Notes: generated by a model from the letters alone, not told the origin. A DNA stretch of 64,000 nucleotides from Dehalococcoidia bacterium (GCA_965225795.1 OZ245324.1:568944-632943); one strand, 5' to 3'; numbered from the stretch's first letter, positions 5,812-33,875 are shown. Made by a program: numbers and translations.

Positions 5812-6348
5812 TTAGCTAACCAATTGACTTAGCGTTTGCGGCAGAGCCTCTTCCGCACGTGCCATCACCTCTTCTTCGTTCAGGCTGCCCATCGGATGAC
5901 CTATGACTGCGTACTCGTATCCTGGCATAGCCAGCAAGTTAGTCATTGCTCGCGCTTGAGTATTGAATGGCTTTGTGACTAGGACTGAACAAGGAATGCC
6001 GAGCCTCTCCAGAGCGGCTGCGTCCTGCATACAGCAGGATGTGCAACTCCCTCACTCTGCTGTCGCAGCAATAACAACATCGCACTGCTCGGCCATCTCT
6101 GCAATCATCTCAGCAGGCGCTGGAATGCGGTGCGATCTCTTATTTGCCTCCACAACATTCTTGACTGCATACTGCTTCTTAACTAGGTTCGCAACGTCGC
6201 GCAGCAGCAATTCAGAATTCGGCTTGTTATTAGACAGCAGTCCGACTACCAGTCCGTCAAGGGTGCGCGGGCGCTGTGCTATGCCGGTGTTCTCGTGCAT
6301 GCTCCCGCCGCGCGGATCAAGTGTAATCAGTTCGTTCTCTTGAGTCAT
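5812..6348 (-). CDS. UGSC-type selenoprotein (U-G-S-C-T-S-C, a UxxCxxC motif) with in-frame TGA at 6052-6054.
   Basis: Track ORFs 6052-6357 and 5812-6030 are in one frame, separated only by TGA: ..VVIAATAE-U-GSCTSCCMQDAAALERLGIP.. The GAGGTG RBS lies 6 nt before ATG 6348. A hairpin follows the TGA. Confidence 0.75.
6023..6039 (-). promoter_or_regulatory. Candidate bacterial SECIS hairpin for the UGSC gene.
   Basis: The mRNA UCCUGC-UGUAU-GCAGGA starts 13 nt after the UGA, and its loop contains GU. Confidence 0.4.
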
Positions 6349-6388
6349 AGCATTCACCTCTAAGTCTGAATCTGCTTCTTGAAATCCG

Positions 6389-7408
6389 CTATGTGCGGAT
6401 TTCCTTGGTAATTGAAATCACATCTCCCCACGCACCGATCAGCATTGCAAAGGGTCCCGCATCGCCCCCCGCTCCCACAACCGTTATCTCTTCCGTACTT
6501 GCTACCACGGGAATCCGCCTATCCAAGTCGTGCCCGGTGTACAGAGTGATGCGTCGGTGCATTTCGTTCAGTTCACGCCCCGTTCTTGTACCCCGTTCCA
6601 GCATGAATTCCTTGATTCGCTGTTTCGTCCACCCCGCAGTGCGTATGTAATTCATCAGCTCGGGGCTAAGTGCAAGCACAAATTCGGAGTGACGTTCTCC
6701 CAGTACGATTGATGCGTCAGCCGCAATGCTTAGAAAGTCTTCCGGCGCGCTCTCATTCTGAGTGTTCACTTGCACAGGCGAGTTCGCTGCGAACACTGTA
6801 ACAGTGCTATCGGACTCTTTGAACCCCTTCTCTACTCGCAAAGGCTCCCAAGGTATGACGTCGTCGTTCTCCGCGAAGCAGAACGAATACTTGCCCGGAT
6901 GCCCGAAGGTGCTCTTATCCATCCCGTGCGGCACAGAACCGTACACATTTATCTTGATAAGCCCCATCGCGCGCCCGATGGTTGCGTTCGCGCGGAAACC
7001 ATGCCCCATTGCCACCGTGCTTGAGTTGATGCCAATCTGCTTGGCAATGTCGCCGCTGACAATAACCAGTACGCTCACTCCGTTGGTCGATGTGCTGTTG
7101 GCATGAAAATTGAACGCACGCTCCGACACCGCCTGCACTGCCGCCACGATTACCGGCATGTATTCCGGCTTGCACCCTGCCAAAACCGCGTTGATTGCGA
7201 CTTTCTCAGCGGTGAACTCAACGCCGCGCACGCACTCTTCCGCAATGATGTCTGAAGGCGCAAGCCCGGCGTAGTCGAGCATCGCCTGCACCATGGATTC
7301 CGTCGGTGGCACGACAGGCAACCCGTCGCCCATCCCATCAGACATGTAATAGTCTTGAGCGTCTTCATAGCTCGAGTGACGGACCCTTGATGAAGTAAGG
7401 CCGTTCAT
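6389..7408 (-). CDS. Conserved hypothetical protein (GDGLPVVPPT motif), co-oriented partner of the UGSC selenoprotein.
   Basis: 339-aa ORF lying 31 nt upstream of the UGSC gene and 21 nt downstream of the esterase gene. I recognise no family. Confidence 0.6.
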   Translation of the reverse strand: MNGLTSSRVRHSSYEDAQDYYMSDGMGDGLPVVPPTESMVQAMLDYAGLAPSDIIAEECVRGVEFTAEKVAINAVLAGCKPEYMPVIVAAVQAVSERAFNFHANSTSTNGVSVLVIVSGDIAKQIGINSSTVAMGHGFRANATIGRAMGLIKINVYGSVPHGMDKSTFGHPGKYSFCFAENDDVIPWEPLRVEKGFKESDSTVTVFAANSPVQVNTQNESAPEDFLSIAADASIVLGERHSEFVLALSPELMNYIRTAGWTKQRIKEFMLERGTRTGRELNEMHRRITLYTGHDLDRRIPVVASTEEITVVGAGGDAGPFAMLIGAWGDVISITKEIRT

Positions 7409-7429: not shown

Positions 7430-8344
7430 TTATGCTAGGCTAACTGCAACGCCGATTTGTTCCTTTATGAAGTCGCCCATGCGATCTACTGCCTGCTGAC
7501 CTTCCGGCAGAAATGGCGCGAACCACGGCCAGACATGTACCATGTCGTCCCAGACCTCCAGCGTGCTGTCCACCCCTGCGGCTTCCGCCTTTTCGTGTAG
7601 TCTCACGGCGTCGTCCATCAATACTTCAGCTGTGCCTACGATGATGAGCAGAGGCGGCAACCCTGCTAGGTCTGCATAGAGCGGTGCAGCCAGCGGATCT
7701 CGAGTATCCTCCCCGCCGAGGAATTTTTCCGCCATTTCCAGCAGCCCTTGCTGTGAAACCATTGGGTCTATGCCGGCCTTGGAAGTCATGGAATCGCCGA
7801 TGCCCTCCATATCGACCCACGGCGATACGCAGACACCTGCTGCAGGAATCGGGTCGCCCGCGTCTCGCGCCGAAAGGAGAGTTGCGACCGCAAGTCCGCC
7901 GCCCGCTGAATCTCCTGCAACCACTATTGATGAGGAATCAATGTCATTGTTCAGCAGCCAGCGGTAAGTCGCATGCGCGTCCTCAACTTGGGCAGGATGC
8001 TTGTGTTCGGGCGCAAGTCTGTAATCTACAGTGAGCACGCGGCAACCACTCGCCCGAGACAGGTTCGCAGCCATGCCTCTGTGGCTTTTCACGGAGCCTG
8101 TTACATATCCGCCCCCGTGCAGGTAAAGGATTGCGCCGTTGCCCGCACCTTCCGCTAATACCCACTCTGCTGGCACGCCGTCCGCATTGACTGCTTCTGT
8201 GGTGACTCCATCAAGATTCTGAAACCTTGCACCCATCAGCTCGCTTCCAGCGCGCCTCTCTTCTAATGTCGGCGTTCTTTCAGCGTTCGCGATCGCACGT
8301 TCCGCGAACATTTCCAGTAGGTCCTGCAACTCTGCGCTTGCCAT
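7430..8344 (-). CDS. Alpha/beta hydrolase, hormone-sensitive-lipase-type carboxylesterase.
   Basis: HGGGY oxyanion motif and GDSAGG nucleophile elbow; 304 aa. Confidence 0.85.
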   Translation of the reverse strand: MASAELQDLLEMFAERAIANAERTPTLEERRAGSELMGARFQNLDGVTTEAVNADGVPAEWVLAEGAGNGAILYLHGGGYVTGSVKSHRGMAANLSRASGCRVLTVDYRLAPEHKHPAQVEDAHATYRWLLNNDIDSSSIVVAGDSAGGGLAVATLLSARDAGDPIPAAGVCVSPWVDMEGIGDSMTSKAGIDPMVSQQGLLEMAEKFLGGEDTRDPLAAPLYADLAGLPPLLIIVGTAEVLMDDAVRLHEKAEAAGVDSTLEVWDDMVHVWPWFAPFLPEGQQAVDRMGDFIKEQIGVAVSLA

Positions 8345-8539
8345 CTGATGCTCCTTTTCCGTCCAAGGTGGGTCTCACATTTGTGTGTGGAGGTATCGGC
8401 GATTTTCACGATTATATCGCCACAGACGCCAAGTGCCAAGTTGCTCCGCGGAATCCTATACCACTTGTGGGAATATGATATGATTGGCACGCTTCCCGCA
8501 GTTCAGATTCGCCTCTACGCCAAAACGGGGGACAGCAGA

Positions 8540-9574
8540 ATGGCTCGCCGCAACTTCTCTATGATTGAGTATTTCAATCGCCGTGCCAAGAACTGGACGC
8601 CGCGGCTTGCATTTCGAGGCGAGACAAAGGCAGACTGGGAAGCTTGGCGTGGTACTGCACTGGCAAAATTGATAGATGTTCTAGGGGAATTCCCCGAAAC
8701 AGTTGACCCTGCACCCGAAGTCGTCTATTCGGTTGAAGACAACGGACTTGTGCGCGAGCGTGTTGTTTTTGATTCGGAAGAGTACATGTCGGTGCCATGC
8801 GTAATCCTCAAACCTGCTGATATGCCCAACGACGGAAGTTCACCGGCGATCCTGTGCAGCCACGGGCACGGTCCTTTCGGCAAGGAGCCTGTTGCAGGCA
8901 ACGCCTCATCCGAGGCAATGCGGGCTAATATGGCAAGGCACAACTACAATTACGCTGAGCAGATGGCTCGCAGGGGTTTCCTGACGATAAGCCCGGACCT
9001 TAGGTGCTTCGGTGAACGTTCCGATGGGCCGGACCCATATCCGGGCCGCGACCGGTGCAATGTTCATTTCGTACGTGGCGCGGTTATGGGAATATATACT
9101 CTCACACTGAACATCTGGGACATGATGCGCTGCATAGACTACCTGCAAAACCGACCTGAAGTTGATCCTGAGAGAATCGGGATGATGGGGTTGTCGCAGG
9201 GTGGAACTATGACCACCTTCACTGCGGCAATCGAGCCTAGAATCAAAGCCGCCGACATCATCGGATATCTCAACCCCTGGGCCGAATTCGGCATTCAGAA
9301 TGCCAATTTCTGCGGCTCCCAAATTGTGCCTGAAGTGTACCGATACCTGGACACTCACGACATCGCCGGGCTGGTAGCACCTCGTCCTCTGCTTGTTGAG
9401 ATGGGTGTACACGACACCACATTTCCCATCGAGGACATGCTTAGCGGATATGAAGGAGTAAAGCGAATTTACGCCGCCGCTGAAGCGTCCGCACATCTAT
9501 GGGCGGATGTTCATCCGGGAGAGCACGCCTTCGCGGCAAACAAAGCGTTCGATTTCTTCGAGCGGTACTTGTGA
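8540..9574 (+). CDS. Alpha/beta hydrolase (acetyl-xylan-esterase/dienelactone-hydrolase-like).
   Basis: GLSQGG nucleophile elbow and C-terminal HD/H residues. The track start at 8348 would abut the divergent gene. ATG 8540 is preceded by GGGGGA. Confidence 0.7.
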   Translation: MARRNFSMIEYFNRRAKNWTPRLAFRGETKADWEAWRGTALAKLIDVLGEFPETVDPAPEVVYSVEDNGLVRERVVFDSEEYMSVPCVILKPADMPNDGSSPAILCSHGHGPFGKEPVAGNASSEAMRANMARHNYNYAEQMARRGFLTISPDLRCFGERSDGPDPYPGRDRCNVHFVRGAVMGIYTLTLNIWDMMRCIDYLQNRPEVDPERIGMMGLSQGGTMTTFTAAIEPRIKAADIIGYLNPWAEFGIQNANFCGSQIVPEVYRYLDTHDIAGLVAPRPLLVEMGVHDTTFPIEDMLSGYEGVKRIYAAAEASAHLWADVHPGEHAFAANKAFDFFERYL

Positions 9575-26845: not shown

Positions 26846-27078
26846 CGGTCACTCATGGTAATGGGGTTAATTTGTCTGCTCATTGCGACAAAATTATACT
26901 TTCTCACGCTCAATACTGCAAAAGATTTCAGTAAACAGGGAACATTATCCCATACCTTCCCATGAGCCGTTAACGAGAACTTAATTTGCCACTACACTCC
27001 CGGCTGCATAGAATGAATATATTCCCTCTACCAGTTACCAGATTCAAAATTGGCAGTCCATTATGAGAGGTGCTTCAT

Positions 27079-29817
27079 ATGACCAACTCACTCCAACGGT
27101 TGCAGGCACTTGGGCAGTCCGTGTGGTTCGATAACATTCGCAGAGGCTTTATCAGGTCGGGTGAACTGCAGCGTTTGGTAGATTTGGGAGTGAGTGGTCT
27201 GACTTCCAACCCATCCATATTCGAAAAGGCGATTACCGGGAGCAGCGACTACGACGAGGCACTACTTGACCTTGCGCTCGCTGGCAACAGTGCGACGGAA
27301 ATTTTCGAGAGTCTTGCCATCGAGGATATACGTGATGCAGCAGACCTTCTTCTTCCCGTGTACGAGCGTACCGCAGGTGCGGACGGATTTGCTTCCATAG
27401 AAGTCAGCCCGCACCTCGCCAACGACACCAAGGGCACTGTCGCCGAGGCACAGAGACTCTACGCAACTCTGCAGCGCCCGAATGTGATGATAAAGGTTCC
27501 TGCTACTCCTGCGGGAATACCAGCCATCCGGCAGCTCATCAGTGATGGCATCAACGTCAACGTTACTCTTATATTCTCGCTGGATGCCTATGCTGAGGTG
27601 CGTGAGGCGTATGTCAGCGGGCTGGAAGAACTGGAATTAGCAGGAGGAGATCCGTCTTGTGTGTCGTCGGTAGCGTCGTTTTTCGTGAGTCGTATAGATG
27701 CATCCGTTGAAGGCAAGTTGGACGAGCTTATTGCTTCTGGAAATAGCGAATTGAAAGGACTGATGGGCAAGGCCGCTATCGCCAATGCCAAAATGGCGTA
27801 CCGTGACTTTGTCCAAACCTTCAGCAACGACAGGTTCACGGCGTTGGAAACCGCAGGGGCACGTGTACAGCGCCCGCTGTGGGCGAGTACCAGCACGAAG
27901 AACCCAGAGTATAGCGATGTTTTGTATGTCGATGAACTAATTGGGCCAAACACTGTAAATACCCTACCGGATGTTACGCTCCACGCGTTCCTCGAGCACG
28001 GCAACCCGAGAAGAACAATCGACCGTGACCTTGATGAAGCTGAACGGACCATGCAGGCACTTGAGGATGCCGGCATAAGCATGTCGCAGGTAACCAGCAA
28101 GCTTCTCGAAGATGGCGTTAAGGCATTTGCAGACTCGTATGACGCACTCATTGCCAATATCGAGGACAAACGAGCCCGTCTCGTCGCGCGGCAGTCGGGA
28201 AATAGCACTCGGCTCGGCGATTACGAAGAATCGGTAACTGCAATTCTTGCGGATCTTGAAAGCAGGCAAGTGCCTCGACGGATTTGGGACCTTGACCATA
28301 CCGTCTGGAACGCTAATCCAGCTGAAATTACCGACAGACTTGGCTGGCTTACGGTAGCCCGTGATATGCGCCAGTATGTTGAGGAATTGCAGGCGTTTGC
28401 GGAGGAAGTCAAAAGCGATGGATTCCGGCATGTCGTGCTACTGGGGATGGGCGGCAGCAGCCTCGGCGCATTGGCGCTTGATAATCTCTTTGGAAGCGCT
28501 GACGGCTATCCCGACCTCACTGTGCTCGACACCACCGTGCCCGCCACGATCAGCGCCGTATCCGATTCATTGGACTGCGAAAAGACGCTCTTTATTGTGG
28601 CGTCCAAGTCCGGAACGACGATCGAGCCTAATGTTCTGTACAAGCGCTTCAGGGCACTTGTTGAGCGGGAGGTAGGGGGCGCAGATGCGGGCAATCATTT
28701 CGTTGCGATTTGCGACGCTGGCACATTACTTGAGCGGCTAGCCAGGGAAGACGGCTTTCGTCGAATCTTTACGAATCCGCCCAATTTAGGAGGGCGTTAT
28801 TCTGTGCAGTCGCTTTTCGGCTTGGTGCCTGCAGCTTTTCTTGGGATTGACATTGGCAAATTCCTGGATTCCGTGGAGACCATGAGCTCTGCCTGTGGAG
28901 CAACTGTTCCAGCGAACGATAACCCTGCTGCTCGGCTTGGTGCCTTGATAGCTTCGCTGTCGGAACAAGGGCGCGACAAACTGACAATCGTGACTACCGA
29001 ATCACTCCAGAATTTCGCTCTCTGGGTCGAGCAACTGCTCGCAGAGAGCACCGGTAAAGGGGGAAAGGGGATCATCCCAGTCGCAAACGAACCACATTGC
29101 AGCCCCAGTGACCTCGGTAGGGACAGGCTGTTCGTTTATGTGCGCCTAGACGAGGATGACACAGATGTAACCGATAGATACATCAAAAGTGTGGAGGATG
29201 AGGGTATACCGGTTGTCAGGTTTGATCTCATTGGCGGATACAACATTGGCGCTGAATTCTTCCGGTGGGAATTTGCTACCGCAGTCGCCGGAAGTTTAAT
29301 GGGCATTCATCCGTTCGACCAGCCGAATGTCCAGCAGGCCAAGGACAAGACTTCAGAGTTGCTTGCGGAGTACGAGAGTTCAGGACGATCACCTGCGCTC
29401 AACACCGTGAGTTCGTTTACGGAACTGATGTCACATGTCAAAGAGGGGGACTACTTAGCGATTACGGCCTTTGCTAAACCAACGGCGCAAGTGGAATCGG
29501 CTTTGGCCGATCTGCGGCAAAATGTCACGGGCAAGTGGGGTGTTGCCACAACTCTTGGCTATGGTCCGCGTTACTTGCACTCGACAGGTCAACTTCATAA
29601 AGGTGGAGCGGACTCTGGGCTGTTCTTACAACTTACGCAGATAGAAGATGCCGATGTTACAATACCGGGTGAGAGGTTCACTTTTGGAGTATTGGCAGCG
29701 GCACAGGCTAAAGGCGATCTGGACGCACTAGCCGCTAAAGGACGCAATGTTGCTCGTATTAATCTTGGCGCTGACGCGGTACAGACGGTAAAGACGTTAG
29801 CCAATAGCCTCAAATAA
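27079..29817 (+). CDS. Bifunctional transaldolase / glucose-6-phosphate isomerase.
   Basis: The N-terminal transaldolase part has SVWFDNIRR, LTSNPSIFEKA and MIKVPAT. The C-terminal PGI part has GMGGSSLG and SKSGTTIEP. ATG 27079 follows a GAGAGGTG RBS. Confidence 0.9.
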   Translation: MTNSLQRLQALGQSVWFDNIRRGFIRSGELQRLVDLGVSGLTSNPSIFEKAITGSSDYDEALLDLALAGNSATEIFESLAIEDIRDAADLLLPVYERTAGADGFASIEVSPHLANDTKGTVAEAQRLYATLQRPNVMIKVPATPAGIPAIRQLISDGINVNVTLIFSLDAYAEVREAYVSGLEELELAGGDPSCVSSVASFFVSRIDASVEGKLDELIASGNSELKGLMGKAAIANAKMAYRDFVQTFSNDRFTALETAGARVQRPLWASTSTKNPEYSDVLYVDELIGPNTVNTLPDVTLHAFLEHGNPRRTIDRDLDEAERTMQALEDAGISMSQVTSKLLEDGVKAFADSYDALIANIEDKRARLVARQSGNSTRLGDYEESVTAILADLESRQVPRRIWDLDHTVWNANPAEITDRLGWLTVARDMRQYVEELQAFAEEVKSDGFRHVVLLGMGGSSLGALALDNLFGSADGYPDLTVLDTTVPATISAVSDSLDCEKTLFIVASKSGTTIEPNVLYKRFRALVEREVGGADAGNHFVAICDAGTLLERLAREDGFRRIFTNPPNLGGRYSVQSLFGLVPAAFLGIDIGKFLDSVETMSSACGATVPANDNPAARLGALIASLSEQGRDKLTIVTTESLQNFALWVEQLLAESTGKGGKGIIPVANEPHCSPSDLGRDRLFVYVRLDEDDTDVTDRYIKSVEDEGIPVVRFDLIGGYNIGAEFFRWEFATAVAGSLMGIHPFDQPNVQQAKDKTSELLAEYESSGRSPALNTVSSFTELMSHVKEGDYLAITAFAKPTAQVESALADLRQNVTGKWGVATTLGYGPRYLHSTGQLHKGGADSGLFLQLTQIEDADVTIPGERFTFGVLAAAQAKGDLDALAAKGRNVARINLGADAVQTVKTLANSLK

Positions 29818-32444: not shown

Positions 32445-33875
32445 GTGGGGAGTAACTTGCGGCACAGAATTGCACGGACTTGGTTTTTTGCGGCGCTCGC
32501 CGTGATGCTCTTGATGATGGGTTCTTTGGCTGCTGCGTGCGGCGCTAGCGTACCCGGGACGGAGCTCGAACAGGTGGCACCGATTCAGAACCCCGCGGCT
32601 GATCCCGAATCTAGCAATATTCCAAACTCAGAAGTGTCATCACCTACGGTTCCACCTGCTGAGCAATCGGAGGCCTCGCGTGCTGCTGTACCTGCGGCAA
32701 CACATACAGCTAAGTCACTCGTGGCGGCGCAAGTTCCGGCGTTCACAGCAACTCAAAACGTGGATATGAGTGGAGAAAATGGCAGCATCACGCCCGATCG
32801 AGATTACGAAGGGGCCTTGAGCGCAGCAAGACTAAGCACCAGAGGTTGGGATACCGATTTCAGGTTTCACACTGTACCTTACAGCGAGATAAGATCTGTC
32901 ATTCCTCGCGACAACATCCCGTCGATAGACAAACCCTCCTTTATCGCTCCCTCGGAGGCATCGGCGTGGCTGAGTGATGTTGAGCCTGTGGTATCTCTTG
33001 AAATCAGCGGAGATGTCCGCGCGTACCCGCTCCAGATTCTGACCTGGCACGAAATAGTCAACGACACCGTTGGGGATGTTCCTGTGGCAGTAACATTTTG
33101 CCCGTTGTGCAATTCGGCGATTGCGTTCGACCGGCGTCTGGATGGAAAAGAGCTTGAATTTGGAGTGTCGGGGAATCTTCGCAACTCCGACCTGATAATG
33201 TACGACCGGGAGACGCATTCATGGTGGCAGCAATTCACAGGTGAAGGCATAGCAGGGGAGCACGCGGGACGAAGCTTAAACCATCTCCCAGCCTTTATAG
33301 TATCGTTCGCGGATTTTCAGAGAGCTCACCCGAATGGGAAAGTATTGTCGCGAGATACCGGTTACGCACGTCAGTATGGGCGAAATCCATACGCCGGGTA
33401 TGACACGATCGAAGGAAATCCATTCTTGTTCACAGGAGATTTGGATGGCAGGCTCCTTCCCGTCGAGCGTGTCATCGCAGTAACCATTGGGGAAATTGAT
33501 GTGGCATTCCCGCTGAGTATTCTGCAGGAGGAAGGCGTAATAAACTATGAAACTTCCGGGAGCTCGATTACCGTGTTCCACAAGTTTGGAACAACATCCG
33601 CACTTGACGCTGGTTCAATTGCGGACTCTCGAGATGTGGGATCAGCCGGGGTCTTCGATGCCAGTCTAGACGGCCAGGGATTGACATTCAGCATCAAGAA
33701 TGAAGATATCATTGATGACCAGACGGGAAGCAAGTGGGATATCCTGGGCAATGCCGTGGACGGACCGCTTGCAGGAGAGAGGCTCACTCCAATAGTGCAT
33801 GGCAATCATTTCTGGTTTGCCTGGGCTGTGTTTAAGCCCGACACGCTAGTGTATCAGGGCAGGGAAGGCGCATGA
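32445..33875 (+). CDS. Secreted DUF3179-like protein (probable lipoprotein).
   Basis: LAAAC lipobox. IPSIDKPSF, RAYPLQILTWHEIVND and VTFCPLCNSA motifs are typical of DUF3179. Confidence 0.7.
   Translation: MGSNLRHRIARTWFFAALAVMLLMMGSLAAACGASVPGTELEQVAPIQNPAADPESSNIPNSEVSSPTVPPAEQSEASRAAVPAATHTAKSLVAAQVPAFTATQNVDMSGENGSITPDRDYEGALSAARLSTRGWDTDFRFHTVPYSEIRSVIPRDNIPSIDKPSFIAPSEASAWLSDVEPVVSLEISGDVRAYPLQILTWHEIVNDTVGDVPVAVTFCPLCNSAIAFDRRLDGKELEFGVSGNLRNSDLIMYDRETHSWWQQFTGEGIAGEHAGRSLNHLPAFIVSFADFQRAHPNGKVLSRDTGYARQYGRNPYAGYDTIEGNPFLFTGDLDGRLLPVERVIAVTIGEIDVAFPLSILQEEGVINYETSGSSITVFHKFGTTSALDAGSIADSRDVGSAGVFDASLDGQGLTFSIKNEDIIDDQTGSKWDILGNAVDGPLAGERLTPIVHGNHFWFAWAVFKPDTLVYQGREGA

What the first reader, a model, noticed from the sequence alone, without database searches (positions are those of the whole stretch)
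5812..6348. UGSC / UxxCxxC selenoprotein resembling the Sec motif of glycine-reductase protein B
The joined 178-aa product contains ..AEQCDVVIAATAE-U-GSC-TSC-CMQDAAALERLGIPCSVLV.. The U-x-x-C-x-x-C arrangement is, to my knowledge, the motif described for the GrdB/GrdF/GrdH substrate-specific selenoproteins of glycine/sarcosine/betaine reductases. U-G-S-C is the signature that gives the 'UGSC' (seleno)protein family its name. This protein is much shorter than GrdB, and no grdA, grdC, grdD or grdE gene is nearby, so its substrate and partners are unknown. A hairpin UCCUGC-UGUAU-GCAGGA lies 13 nt after the UGA.
Basis: partly seen in the sequence, partly recalled or inferred. Interest (0 to 1): 0.8.

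Follow-up and report, generated by a model that had tools for sequence, protein, structure and literature searches.

The report
UGSC selenoprotein with an obligate partner
This is a real selenocysteine-containing gene of the known but uncharacterised 'UGSC' family; comparison shows that it is distantly related to the selenium site of glycine/proline reductases and almost always sits next to, or is fused to, the unnamed 339-aa protein encoded beside it.

Summary
The minus-strand ORF 6348..5812 encodes 178 aa with one in-frame TGA (codon 99, 6054..6052) in A-E-U-G-S-C-T-S-C. It scores above the curated cut-offs of Pfam PF24696 (UGSC) and NCBIfam NF041046 (UGSC family (seleno)protein), so it is a new member of a selenoprotein family known since 2007 whose function is still unknown.

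Read-through is strongly supported:
- 99 of 103 homologous genes keep the TGA.
- dN/dS after the TGA is 0.07.
- A hairpin 12 nt after the UGA is paired in 98% of cells across 84 distinct sequences, with compensatory changes and an invariant GU in its loop.

Of 74 family members, 36 weakly hit the GrdB model and 26 the PrdB model, around the selenocysteine. The protein is not a GrdB or PrdB, and the third Cys of UxxCxxC occurs only in some clades. The predicted fold is flavodoxin-like, not thioredoxin-like as the literature suggested.

New here: the upstream 339-aa protein has no Pfam, NCBIfam or PDB relative and at least 7992 homologues. It is adjacent or fused in nearly every locus from bacteria and haloarchaea. 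Thioredoxin-reductase genes flank the pair in four lineages. The likely function is a two-subunit, thioredoxin-recycled selenoenzyme with an unknown substrate.

The parts
5812..6348 (-). UGSC-family selenoprotein gene, 178 aa, with Sec at residue 99 and the resolving Cys at residue 102
   Evidence: Translation. PF24696 and NF041046 are both above their cut-offs. The frame is conserved to the homologous stop codon in 28 of 28 related loci.
6052..6054 (-). In-frame UGA read as selenocysteine
   Evidence: TGA is at the homologous codon in 99 of 103 homologous genes and Cys (TGC/TGT) in the other 4. dN/dS after the TGA is 0.068.
6023..6039 (-). Apical SECIS hairpin UCCUGC-UGUAU-GCAGGA, which starts 12 nt after the UGA
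   Evidence: 98.2% of cells are paired across 84 distinct sequences. Three of 6 pairs show compensatory changes, G and U in the loop are invariant, and slid controls pair in 50% of cells or fewer.
6017..6047 (-). Extended SECIS with the lower stem GUUGC/GCAGC, which is specific to this clade
   Evidence: MFE and centroid fold. The lower helix is paired in only 56% of cells family-wide.
6355..6360 (-). Shine-Dalgarno-like GAGGTG, 6 nt upstream of the ATG of the UGSC gene
   Evidence: Read directly from the sequence.
6389..7408 (-). Partner protein, 339 aa, from an uncharacterised family. Conserved motifs are DGLP (28-31) and AxNxVxAGC79xPE, plus R139, N141, R146 and E180.
   Evidence: No Pfam, NCBIfam or PDB sequence match. 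At least 7992 homologues. Adjacent to or fused with UGSC in nearly all loci.
7430..8344 (-). Hormone-sensitive-lipase-type esterase (GDSAG motif), probably the first gene of the operon in this clade
   Evidence: Abhydrolase_3 at 203 bits. It lies 21 nt upstream of the partner gene and is found directly upstream in 25 of 27 Chloroflexota loci.
8411..8439 (-). Promoter-like site TTGGCA-17-TATAAT upstream of the esterase gene
   Evidence: 11 of 12 consensus matches. This is a consensus match only.

Best explanation
Shown: the gene at 6348..5812 (minus strand) encodes a 178-aa UGSC-family selenoprotein. UGA codon 99 is read as selenocysteine, directed by a SECIS hairpin that starts 12 nt downstream. 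Sec99 and Cys102 (U-G-S-C) sit at the start of a helix in a flavodoxin-like alpha/beta domain. That domain is a remote homologue of the Sec-bearing domain of GrdB and PrdB.

Strongly inferred: the protein works as the small redox subunit of a two-protein enzyme. The large subunit is the upstream 339-aa protein, which presumably binds the substrate through its invariant Cys79, Arg, Asn and Glu residues.

Inferred by analogy with PrdB/GrdB and from gene context: the selenolate attacks or reduces a partner-bound small organic acid. Cys102 then resolves the intermediate to a selenenylsulfide. That bond is re-reduced by the thioredoxin / thioredoxin-reductase system using NAD(P)H. In this Dehalococcoidia clade the co-transcribed esterase may produce the substrate. 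The substrate itself is unknown.
For: Family membership:
- Both curated family models are passed.

Read-through:
- TGA is conserved in all 28 related Dehalococcoidia/Chloroflexota/Binatota loci, with the frame continuing to the homologous stop.
- 99 of 103 homologous genes across all loci carry TGA.
- dN/dS is 0.068 after the TGA and 0.114 before it.
- About nine in ten of the best 150 family representatives in the 1.8-billion-protein library are fragments of about 82-126 aa cut at the Sec codon.
- SECIS covariation is strong.

Homology to GrdB/PrdB:
- Hits recur in 36 of 74 (GrdB) and 26 of 74 (PrdB) family members, and the aligned coordinates place the Sec position near the Sec of those models.

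Fold:
- AF2 model with pLDDT 92.4, five beta-alpha units, and the Cys/Sec at the beta3-alpha3 junction.
- Foldseek finds only flavodoxin-like and Rossmann-like folds.

Partner linkage:
- 28 of 28 loci selected by UGSC have the partner adjacent.
- 69 of 80 metagenome loci selected by the partner have UGSC adjacent on the same strand. One is a clear absence and 10 are cut by contig ends.
- Cys-form loci in Saccharopolyspora, Halorientalis and another genome keep the pair, often with 4-nt overlaps.
- Fusions occur in both orders: P0316, and proteins of Sporomusa, Vibrio and Variovorax.

Thioredoxin link:
- trxB-trxA-partner-UGSC in Arthrobacter, partner-UGSC-trxB in Roseovarius, and trxB-type genes two or three genes away in two Variovorax plasmids.

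Sec dependence in a relative:
- PrdB U151C is inactive (PMC11229817), which parallels the strong Sec preference here.
Against: - No biochemical data exist for any family member (PMC13188914).
- Homology to GrdB/PrdB is weak: 16.4 bits against a cut-off of 602 for the window protein, and the Pfam GRDB model is not hit.
- No pyruvoyl-type subunit (GrdE/PrdA) is present.
- The partner's own chemistry is unknown. Its best structural match is class I fumarate hydratase at E = 3.5e-5 but TM only 0.25-0.30.
- TrxB adjacency is seen in 4 of 11 annotated plasmid loci and not in this window.
- Other neighbours are heterogeneous.
- Partner Cys79 is not absolutely invariant (104 of 107 sequences).
- No Sec machinery (tRNA-Sec, SelA, SelB, SelD) is seen in the 64-kb window. 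Sec decoding in this organism is therefore inferred from conservation only.
- No complex prediction could be run.
Confidence: 0.6

Rival explanations
1. The TGA is a genuine stop codon. The locus would then be a 98-aa gene followed by an unrelated or decayed ORF (a pseudogene or split gene).
For: Gene callers annotate only 98-aa products. In Paracoccus ferrooxidans the two halves are annotated as separate hypothetical proteins. No Sec machinery was found in the window.
Against: The downstream 79 codons are more conserved than the upstream part (dN/dS 0.068 against 0.114). The frame and the final stop are conserved in 28 of 28 loci. Cys-form homologues are single 175-195-aa proteins. The SECIS hairpin shows compensatory changes. 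selB lies 3 kb from the Sec-form gene in Paracoccus.
Confidence: 0.02
2. UGSC is a free-standing thioredoxin-like antioxidant or thiol-disulfide oxidoreductase, as the literature suggests, and the neighbouring gene is incidental.
For: The U-x-x-C redox motif is present. Zhang & Gladyshev 2008 called it 'likely Trx-like fold' (PMC2398784). trxB genes lie nearby in some genomes.
Against: The predicted fold is a five-strand beta-alpha flavodoxin-like sandwich, and no thioredoxin-fold protein is among the Foldseek hits. The pairing with the partner is near-obligate and gene fusions occur in both orders.
Confidence: 0.1
3. The pair is a true Stickland-type reductase. Partner plus UGSC would cleave a C-N or C-X bond at the alpha-carbon of an amino or imino acid, as PrdA/PrdB and GrdE/GrdB do, with the partner carrying an electrophilic cofactor.
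For: Recurrent homology to the Sec domains of GrdB and PrdB. The thioredoxin system is adjacent, as in grd operons. Aconitase X with DUF126 flanks the fused forms in Vibrio and Sporomusa; from general knowledge, that family includes a hydroxyproline dehydratase. Ornithine cyclodeaminase, an aminotransferase and RidA lie near the Variovorax fusion.
Against: The partner shows no similarity to GrdE or PrdA. No Cys or Ser is positioned as an obvious self-cleavage site: Cys177 is Val in 13 of 107 sequences. No GrdA, GrdC or GrdD is present. Most contexts are organic-acid or ester catabolism (SDR, CoA transferase, TRAP/TTT transporters) rather than amino-acid fermentation. The hosts are largely aerobes.
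Confidence: 0.2
4. The module handles sulfur, selenium or a metal (trafficking or detoxification) rather than an organic substrate.
For: DsrE, TusA and cysteine desulfurase genes lie upstream of the Paracoccus locus and selB lies downstream. Conserved Cys and Sec residues occur in both proteins.
Against: This context is seen in one locus only, and on the opposite strand. Other loci show transporters for carboxylates and catabolic enzymes.
Confidence: 0.05

Closest known systems
UGSC family (seleno)protein (Pfam PF24696, NCBIfam NF041046). First noted in Hyphomonas neptunium and in ocean metagenomes (PMC1976440, PMC2398784).
   Same: Full-length match above both curated cut-offs. U-G-S-C lies at the conserved position. 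The protein is about 180 aa with a single domain. Sec forms greatly outnumber Cys forms, as reported for the GOS data (255 against 21).
   Different: Nothing differs in kind. This is a Dehalococcoidia member that public gene calls truncate to 98 aa. The published suggestion of a thioredoxin-like fold is not supported by the model built here.
D-proline reductase selenoprotein PrdB (TIGR04483)
   Same: A small Sec subunit with a U-x-x-C site that works with a larger substrate-binding subunit encoded next to it. Recurrent weak profile hits lie around the Sec (26 of 74 family members). The strong preference for Sec parallels the inactivity of PrdB U151C.
   Different: Scores are far below the cut-off. 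The partner is not PrdA (no Gly_reductase or pyruvoyl proprotein similarity). There is no PrdC, PrdH or other prd context. The hosts are aerobic marine and soil bacteria and haloarchaea.
Glycine/sarcosine/betaine reductase protein B (GrdB/GrdF/GrdH: TIGR01917, NF040794, NF040795)
   Same: The window protein has U-x-x-C-x-x-C. Local homology runs from residues 85-126 to GrdB model positions 333-373. Thioredoxin-system genes accompany the module in several genomes, as in grd operons.
   Different: The roughly 300-aa N-terminal part of GrdB is absent. GrdA, GrdC, GrdD and GrdE are absent. The third Cys is not conserved across the UGSC family.
Bacterial SECIS elements (the E. coli fdhF type, from general knowledge)
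   Same: A hairpin lies immediately downstream of the UGA inside the coding sequence, with an apical loop carrying a conserved GU about 18-20 nt after the UGA.
   Different: No Rfam family matches it. The stem sequence is specific to this gene family.

Membership tests
UGSC family (PF24696 / NF041046) | Profile score above the curated cut-off over the full length | tested here: met
   PF24696 scores 174.7 bits against a cut-off of 25, with residues 10-177 matching model positions 3-171 of 172. NF041046 scores 139 bits against 125.
UGSC family (PF24696 / NF041046) | [U/C]-G-S-C motif at the conserved position | tested here: met
   A-E-U-G-S-C at residues 97-102. The same column reads UGSC in 98, UGAC in 1 and CGSC in 4 of 103 homologous genes.
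UGSC family (PF24696 / NF041046) | The UGA is actually decoded as Sec (the protein contains selenium) | not testable with these tools
   Inferred only, from conservation, dN/dS and the SECIS.
Bacterial selenoprotein gene (SECIS-dependent recoding) | A conserved stem-loop just 3' of the UGA with a conserved G/U in the apical loop | tested here: met
   The helix formed by columns 16-21 and 27-32 is paired in 98.2% of cells. Three of 6 pairs are compensatory. G23 and U24 are invariant in 84 sequences.
Bacterial selenoprotein gene (SECIS-dependent recoding) | selA, selB, selC and selD present in the genome | tested here: inconclusive
   None was found in the 64-kb window. The rest of the genome is not available. 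selB lies next to a Sec-form homologue in Paracoccus.
GrdB/GrdF/GrdH/PrdB reductase selenoprotein B (TIGR01917/01918, TIGR04483, Pfam GRDB) | Profile score above the curated cut-off | tested here: not met
   TIGR01917 scores 16.4 bits against a cut-off of 602. The Pfam GRDB model is not hit.
GrdB/GrdF/GrdH/PrdB reductase selenoprotein B (TIGR01917/01918, TIGR04483, Pfam GRDB) | Sec in a U-x-x-C(-x-x-C) site homologous to that of GrdB/PrdB | tested here: met
   The motif is present. Recurrent local hits centre on the Sec region in 36 of 74 (GrdB) and 26 of 74 (PrdB) relatives.
GrdB/GrdF/GrdH/PrdB reductase selenoprotein B (TIGR01917/01918, TIGR04483, Pfam GRDB) | An adjacent pyruvoyl proprotein (GrdE/PrdA) and, for Grd, also GrdA, GrdC and GrdD | tested here: not met
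   None is among the window neighbours or the neighbours at related loci. The partner has no similarity to these proteins.
Thioredoxin-fold oxidoreductases (assignment proposed in PMC2398784) | Thioredoxin fold | tested here: not met
   The AF2 model (pLDDT 92.4) has five beta-alpha units. The best Foldseek hits are flavodoxin-like domains, lumazine synthase and PTS IIB. The model is of a 53%-identical Cys-form homologue, not of the window protein itself.
Class I (Fe-S) fumarate hydratase-like proteins (partner protein only) | Global structural similarity and a three-Cys cluster site | tested here: not met
   Foldseek gives E = 3.5e-5 but TM 0.25-0.30 and rmsd about 16 A. Only two Cys are conserved: C79 in 104 of 107 sequences and C177 in 94 of 107.

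The most novel reading that the evidence does not exclude
UGSC and its roughly 340-aa partner together form a widespread, uncharacterised class of two-subunit selenoenzyme that is recycled by thioredoxin. Its selenium subunit shares ancestry with the Stickland reductases PrdB and GrdB. Its substrate-binding subunit has a fold with no solved relative and no pyruvoyl proprotein. It operates in aerobic marine and soil bacteria and in haloarchaea, on an as yet unidentified organic acid.
Probability: 0.45. Interest if true: 0.7.

Novelty: new member of a known kind. Interest (0 to 1): 0.45.

Why it matters
[quoted passage not shown] Their function has been unknown since 2007, and they are still listed as uncharacterised in a 2026 review (PMC13188914).

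This gene adds nothing new in kind. Following it up gives three concrete handles on the family:
- a defined protein partner, from a large family with no Pfam entry;
- a likely electron donor, the thioredoxin / thioredoxin-reductase system;
- an evolutionary link to the PrdB/GrdB selenium site rather than to thioredoxin-fold proteins.

These make the family's function directly testable: co-express the pair, reduce it with Trx/TrxR, and screen organic acids or esters. The case also shows a systematic annotation error. Nearly all database entries for this family are 98-aa fragments cut at the Sec codon.

Tried and rejected
- The joined protein with U replaced by C could not be submitted to the representative search or to structure prediction; both accept only exact window sequences. 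I therefore used an N-terminal-half profile and modelled a 53%-identical Cys-form homologue.
- PDB sequence searches with the single proteins and with profiles found nothing meaningful for either protein.
- Pfam and NCBIfam scans of 30 partner homologues at E <= 1 gave only scattered noise, such as SsdA_C in 12 of 30 members at E >= 8e-4.
- Foldseek of the partner model gave class I fumarate hydratase at low TM. I rejected this as a basis for function.
- Rfam has no matching SECIS family, either at gathering score or at E <= 10.
- A search for a conserved third gene around the pair, using 127 neighbours from diverse metagenome loci, found no dominant family.
- A crude scan of the window for other TGA-containing ORFs was uninformative.
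- The candidate 'selA' next to Paracoccus selB turned out to be a DctP solute-binding protein.
- The supplementary figure that defines the 'Unknown_1' domain of Zhang & Gladyshev 2008 is held only as an image. Its identity with the partner family is therefore likely but not verified.
- The first locus scan, with a divergent alignment, failed for lack of a conserved stretch.

Full report
**1. The observation**

On the minus strand, 6348..5812 translates to 98 residues, a TGA, 79 more residues and a TAA. The TGA is at 6054..6052. Twelve nucleotides after it lies UCCUGC-UGUAU-GCAGGA (6039..6023), flanked by a lower stem GUUGC/GCAGC. A GAGGTG Shine-Dalgarno-like site precedes the ATG. The 339-aa ORF (7408..6389) lies 40 nt upstream on the same strand. 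An HSL-type esterase gene (8344..7430) lies 21 nt further up, and a promoter-like site lies at 8439..8411.

**2. What it is**

With U replaced by C, the protein matches Pfam PF24696 'UGSC' over its full length (174.7 bits, cut-off 25). It also matches NCBIfam NF041046 'UGSC family (seleno)protein' (139 bits, cut-off 125). The family is in the literature:
- It was first mentioned as a selenoprotein of unknown function in Hyphomonas and in ocean metagenomes (PMC1976440).
- A 2026 review still lists it as uncharacterised (PMC13188914).

So the finding is a correct call of a new member of a known family.

**3. Is the UGA read through?**

- All 120 listed close database homologues are fragments of 98-103 aa that end at ...TAE, i.e. 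gene calls cut at the TGA.
- A profile of the N-terminal half, run against 1.84 billion representatives, gave 1458 hits. About nine in ten of the best 150 are 82-126 aa long. A few are full-length proteins of 175-192 aa with GDCGSC.
- In 27 species-representative genomes (Dehalococcoidia, SAR202, other Chloroflexota and one Binatota) plus the source-like contig L001, every locus has TGA at the homologous codon. The frame then continues about 80 codons to the homologous stop.
- Across all loci collected, 99 of 103 UGSC genes carry TGA and 4 carry Cys.
- The part after the TGA is under stronger purifying selection than the part before it (median dN/dS 0.068 against 0.114, 253 pairs). Variation is concentrated at third codon positions.
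- I aligned 84 distinct sequences anchored on the UGA. The 6-bp helix at columns 16-21/27-32 is paired in 98.2% of cells. Three pairs show double (compensatory) changes: GC/CG/AU/UA at 18-30, UA/GU/AU at 19-29, and CG/GC at 21-27. No shuffle out of 500 reached the observed values, and slid controls pair in 50% of cells or fewer.
- G23 and U24 in the apical loop are invariant, although they occupy synonymous or variable codon positions. The lower stem seen in the window is clade-specific (56% paired).
- This is the anatomy of a bacterial SECIS. Rfam has no model for it.
- The window contains no tRNA-Sec and no strong SelA, SelB or SelD hit. The decoding machinery is therefore inferred, not seen. 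In Paracoccus ferrooxidans a Sec-form homologue lies 3 kb from selB.

**4. Relation to GrdB/PrdB**

The window protein hits the GrdB model TIGR01917 only locally (16.4 bits, E = 0.0032, residues 85-126 to model positions 333-373). I scanned 74 full-length Cys-form relatives one by one. Of these, 36 hit GrdB (best E = 7.3e-6), 26 hit PrdB, 21 hit TIGR01918, 13 hit GrdF and 10 hit GrdH. For P0391, residues 53-156 match GrdB positions 301-397 of 431, and residues 83-139 match PrdB positions 131-187 of 238. By coordinate arithmetic this places its Cys100 within a few positions of the reductases' Sec.

This recurrent, co-linear signal supports remote homology to the Sec-bearing domain. It is not membership:
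- Scores are far below the cut-offs.
- The Pfam GRDB model is not hit.
- The N-terminal ~300 aa of GrdB are missing.
- No GrdA, GrdC, GrdD, GrdE or PrdA gene is nearby.

The GrdB-type U-x-x-C-x-x-C (motif confirmed in PMC13188914) is present in this clade. Many other clades have UGSCSSG or UGSCTSW, so only U-x-x-C defines the family.

**5. Fold**

An AF2 model of the closest full-length homologue (P0391, 53% identical, 74-sequence alignment) has pLDDT 92.4. It shows five beta-alpha units, with the Cys/Sec-G-S-Cys at the junction of strand 3 and helix 3. Foldseek against the PDB returns only generic flavodoxin-like or Rossmann-like domains at TM <= 0.48: flavodiiron flavodoxin domains, lumazine synthase, WrbA and PTS IIB. 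The 'likely Trx-like fold' of the 2008 paper is therefore not supported. The 2024 PrdA/PrdB paper reports failed crystallisation of PrdH and relies on AlphaFold models (PMC11229817), and neither PDB search returned a GrdB or PrdB structure. A structural test of the GrdB link was therefore not possible.

**6. The partner**

The 339-aa neighbour has no Pfam, NCBIfam or PDB sequence relative, even when 30 homologues are scanned at E <= 1. It nevertheless has at least 7992 homologues of about 340 aa. PGAP names it 'hypothetical protein' in every annotated plasmid record that lists it.

Its AF2 model (pLDDT 83.7) has no convincing solved relative. The best match is class I fumarate hydratase at E = 3.5e-5, but with TM 0.25-0.30. 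Across 107 diverse sequences the conserved residues are DGLP (28-31), AxNxVxAGC79xPE, T108, R139, N141, R146, E180 and W187. Cys79 is kept in 104 of 107 and Cys177 in 94 of 107.

Linkage to UGSC is near-obligate:
- 28 of 28 loci selected by UGSC have the partner adjacent. In Binatota it lies on the other side of UGSC.
- 69 of 80 metagenome loci selected by the partner (38-63% identity) have a UGSC gene next to it on the same strand. One is a clear absence (L094) and ten are cut by contig ends.
- The pair persists in Cys form in Saccharopolyspora, in Halorientalis (two partner paralogues flank UGSC) and in other genomes, often with 4-nt overlaps.
- Fusions exist in both orders: partner-UGSC (P0316, cut at the Sec codon) and UGSC-partner (Sporomusa, Vibrio, Variovorax boronicumulans).
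- The 'UGSC/Unknown_1 fusion' of Zhang & Gladyshev 2008 is probably the same domain. The figure is not readable here.

**7. Context and mechanism**

No third gene is universally conserved. The neighbours are SDRs, MFS, TRAP, TTT and NMT1-type transport proteins, alpha/beta hydrolases, CoA transferases and ligases, LLM oxidoreductases and LysR regulators. These are typical of small-organic-acid catabolism.

A thioredoxin-reductase-type flavoprotein (Pyr_redox_2, 305-326 aa) flanks the module in four independent loci:
- Arthrobacter: trxB-trxA-partner-UGSC, contiguous
- Roseovarius: partner-UGSC-trxB
- Variovorax sp. SRS16
- Variovorax boronicumulans

The UxxC site, the PrdB/GrdB homology and the published PrdB mechanism point the same way. 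In PrdB, Sec attacks the substrate bound on the large subunit, the complex is regenerated by the electron-transfer protein PrdC, and the U151C variant is inactive (PMC11229817). Together they suggest that UGSC is the selenol/thiol redox subunit of a two-protein reductase. In that model the selenenylsulfide is re-reduced by Trx/TrxR. The partner supplies the substrate site.

In the window's clade an HSL-type esterase is conserved directly upstream, even at 50-58% identity (L023, L024, L027). It may generate the substrate. The steps beyond 'selenoprotein with an obligate partner' are inference.

**8. Source organism**

The nearest loci are Dehalococcoidia MAGs. They are 93% identical in the N-terminal half and share synteny from GroEL to the phosphotriesterase gene.

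**9. Verdict**

The gene is a new member of a known selenoprotein family, so its novelty as such is low. The follow-up adds a defined partner, a likely reductant and a corrected fold and ancestry for a family that is abundant but functionally unknown.

Noticed in passing
window 6389-7408 (-): The 339-aa partner belongs to a very large family (at least 7992 cluster representatives) of proteins about 340 aa long. The family has no Pfam, NCBIfam or PDB relative. It is named 'hypothetical protein' in the annotated plasmid records that list it.
   Followed up: yes
L043, L044, L046, L056, L064, L077, L090; L030 4935-7597; L085: Several loci carry two partner genes in tandem, or two complete UGSC-partner modules. 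Examples are L044 and L085, and Halorientalis with a partner-UGSC-partner arrangement. This points to repeated duplication of the module.
   Followed up: partly
L114 2890-4595 and L116 3040-4749: In Sporomusa termitida and Vibrio europaeus the fused UGSC-partner gene lies next to aconitase X plus its DUF126 small subunit. In these fusions the UGSC domain is divergent (Pfam E about 1e-5 to 1e-6), and no U/C-G-x-C motif was found by the pattern used.
   Followed up: partly
L118 5378-5947 and 10350-12125: In Paracoccus ferrooxidans plasmid pFER4 the Sec-form UGSC gene is annotated as two separate hypothetical proteins, split at the TGA. selB lies 3 kb downstream. DsrE, TusA and cysteine desulfurase genes lie upstream.
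   Followed up: partly
window 32445-33875 (+): This is a DUF3179 protein. The family is listed in reviews as having selenoprotein members (UxxC/T). Here it is in the Cys form (FCPLCNS).
   Followed up: partly
L123 4974-5981: Haladaptatus halobius has the same DUF6282 / LLM oxidoreductase / CoA transferase / CoA-ester lyase / partner cluster as Halorientalis, but no UGSC gene was detected beside the partner. This is one of the few clear exceptions to the pairing.
   Followed up: no
window 7430-8344 (-) and 8348-9574 (+): Two different alpha/beta-hydrolase genes are transcribed divergently from a very short intergenic region (8344/8348). They are an HSL-type esterase and an Abhydrolase_7/AXE1-like protein. 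An SDR gene and groEL follow. This block is syntenic across most of the Dehalococcoidia loci.
   Followed up: partly
window 27070-29817 (+): A 915-aa ORF combines transaldolase and phosphoglucose isomerase domains. It lies upstream of 6-phosphogluconate dehydrogenase and glucose-6-phosphate dehydrogenase genes, forming a pentose-phosphate cluster.
   Followed up: no
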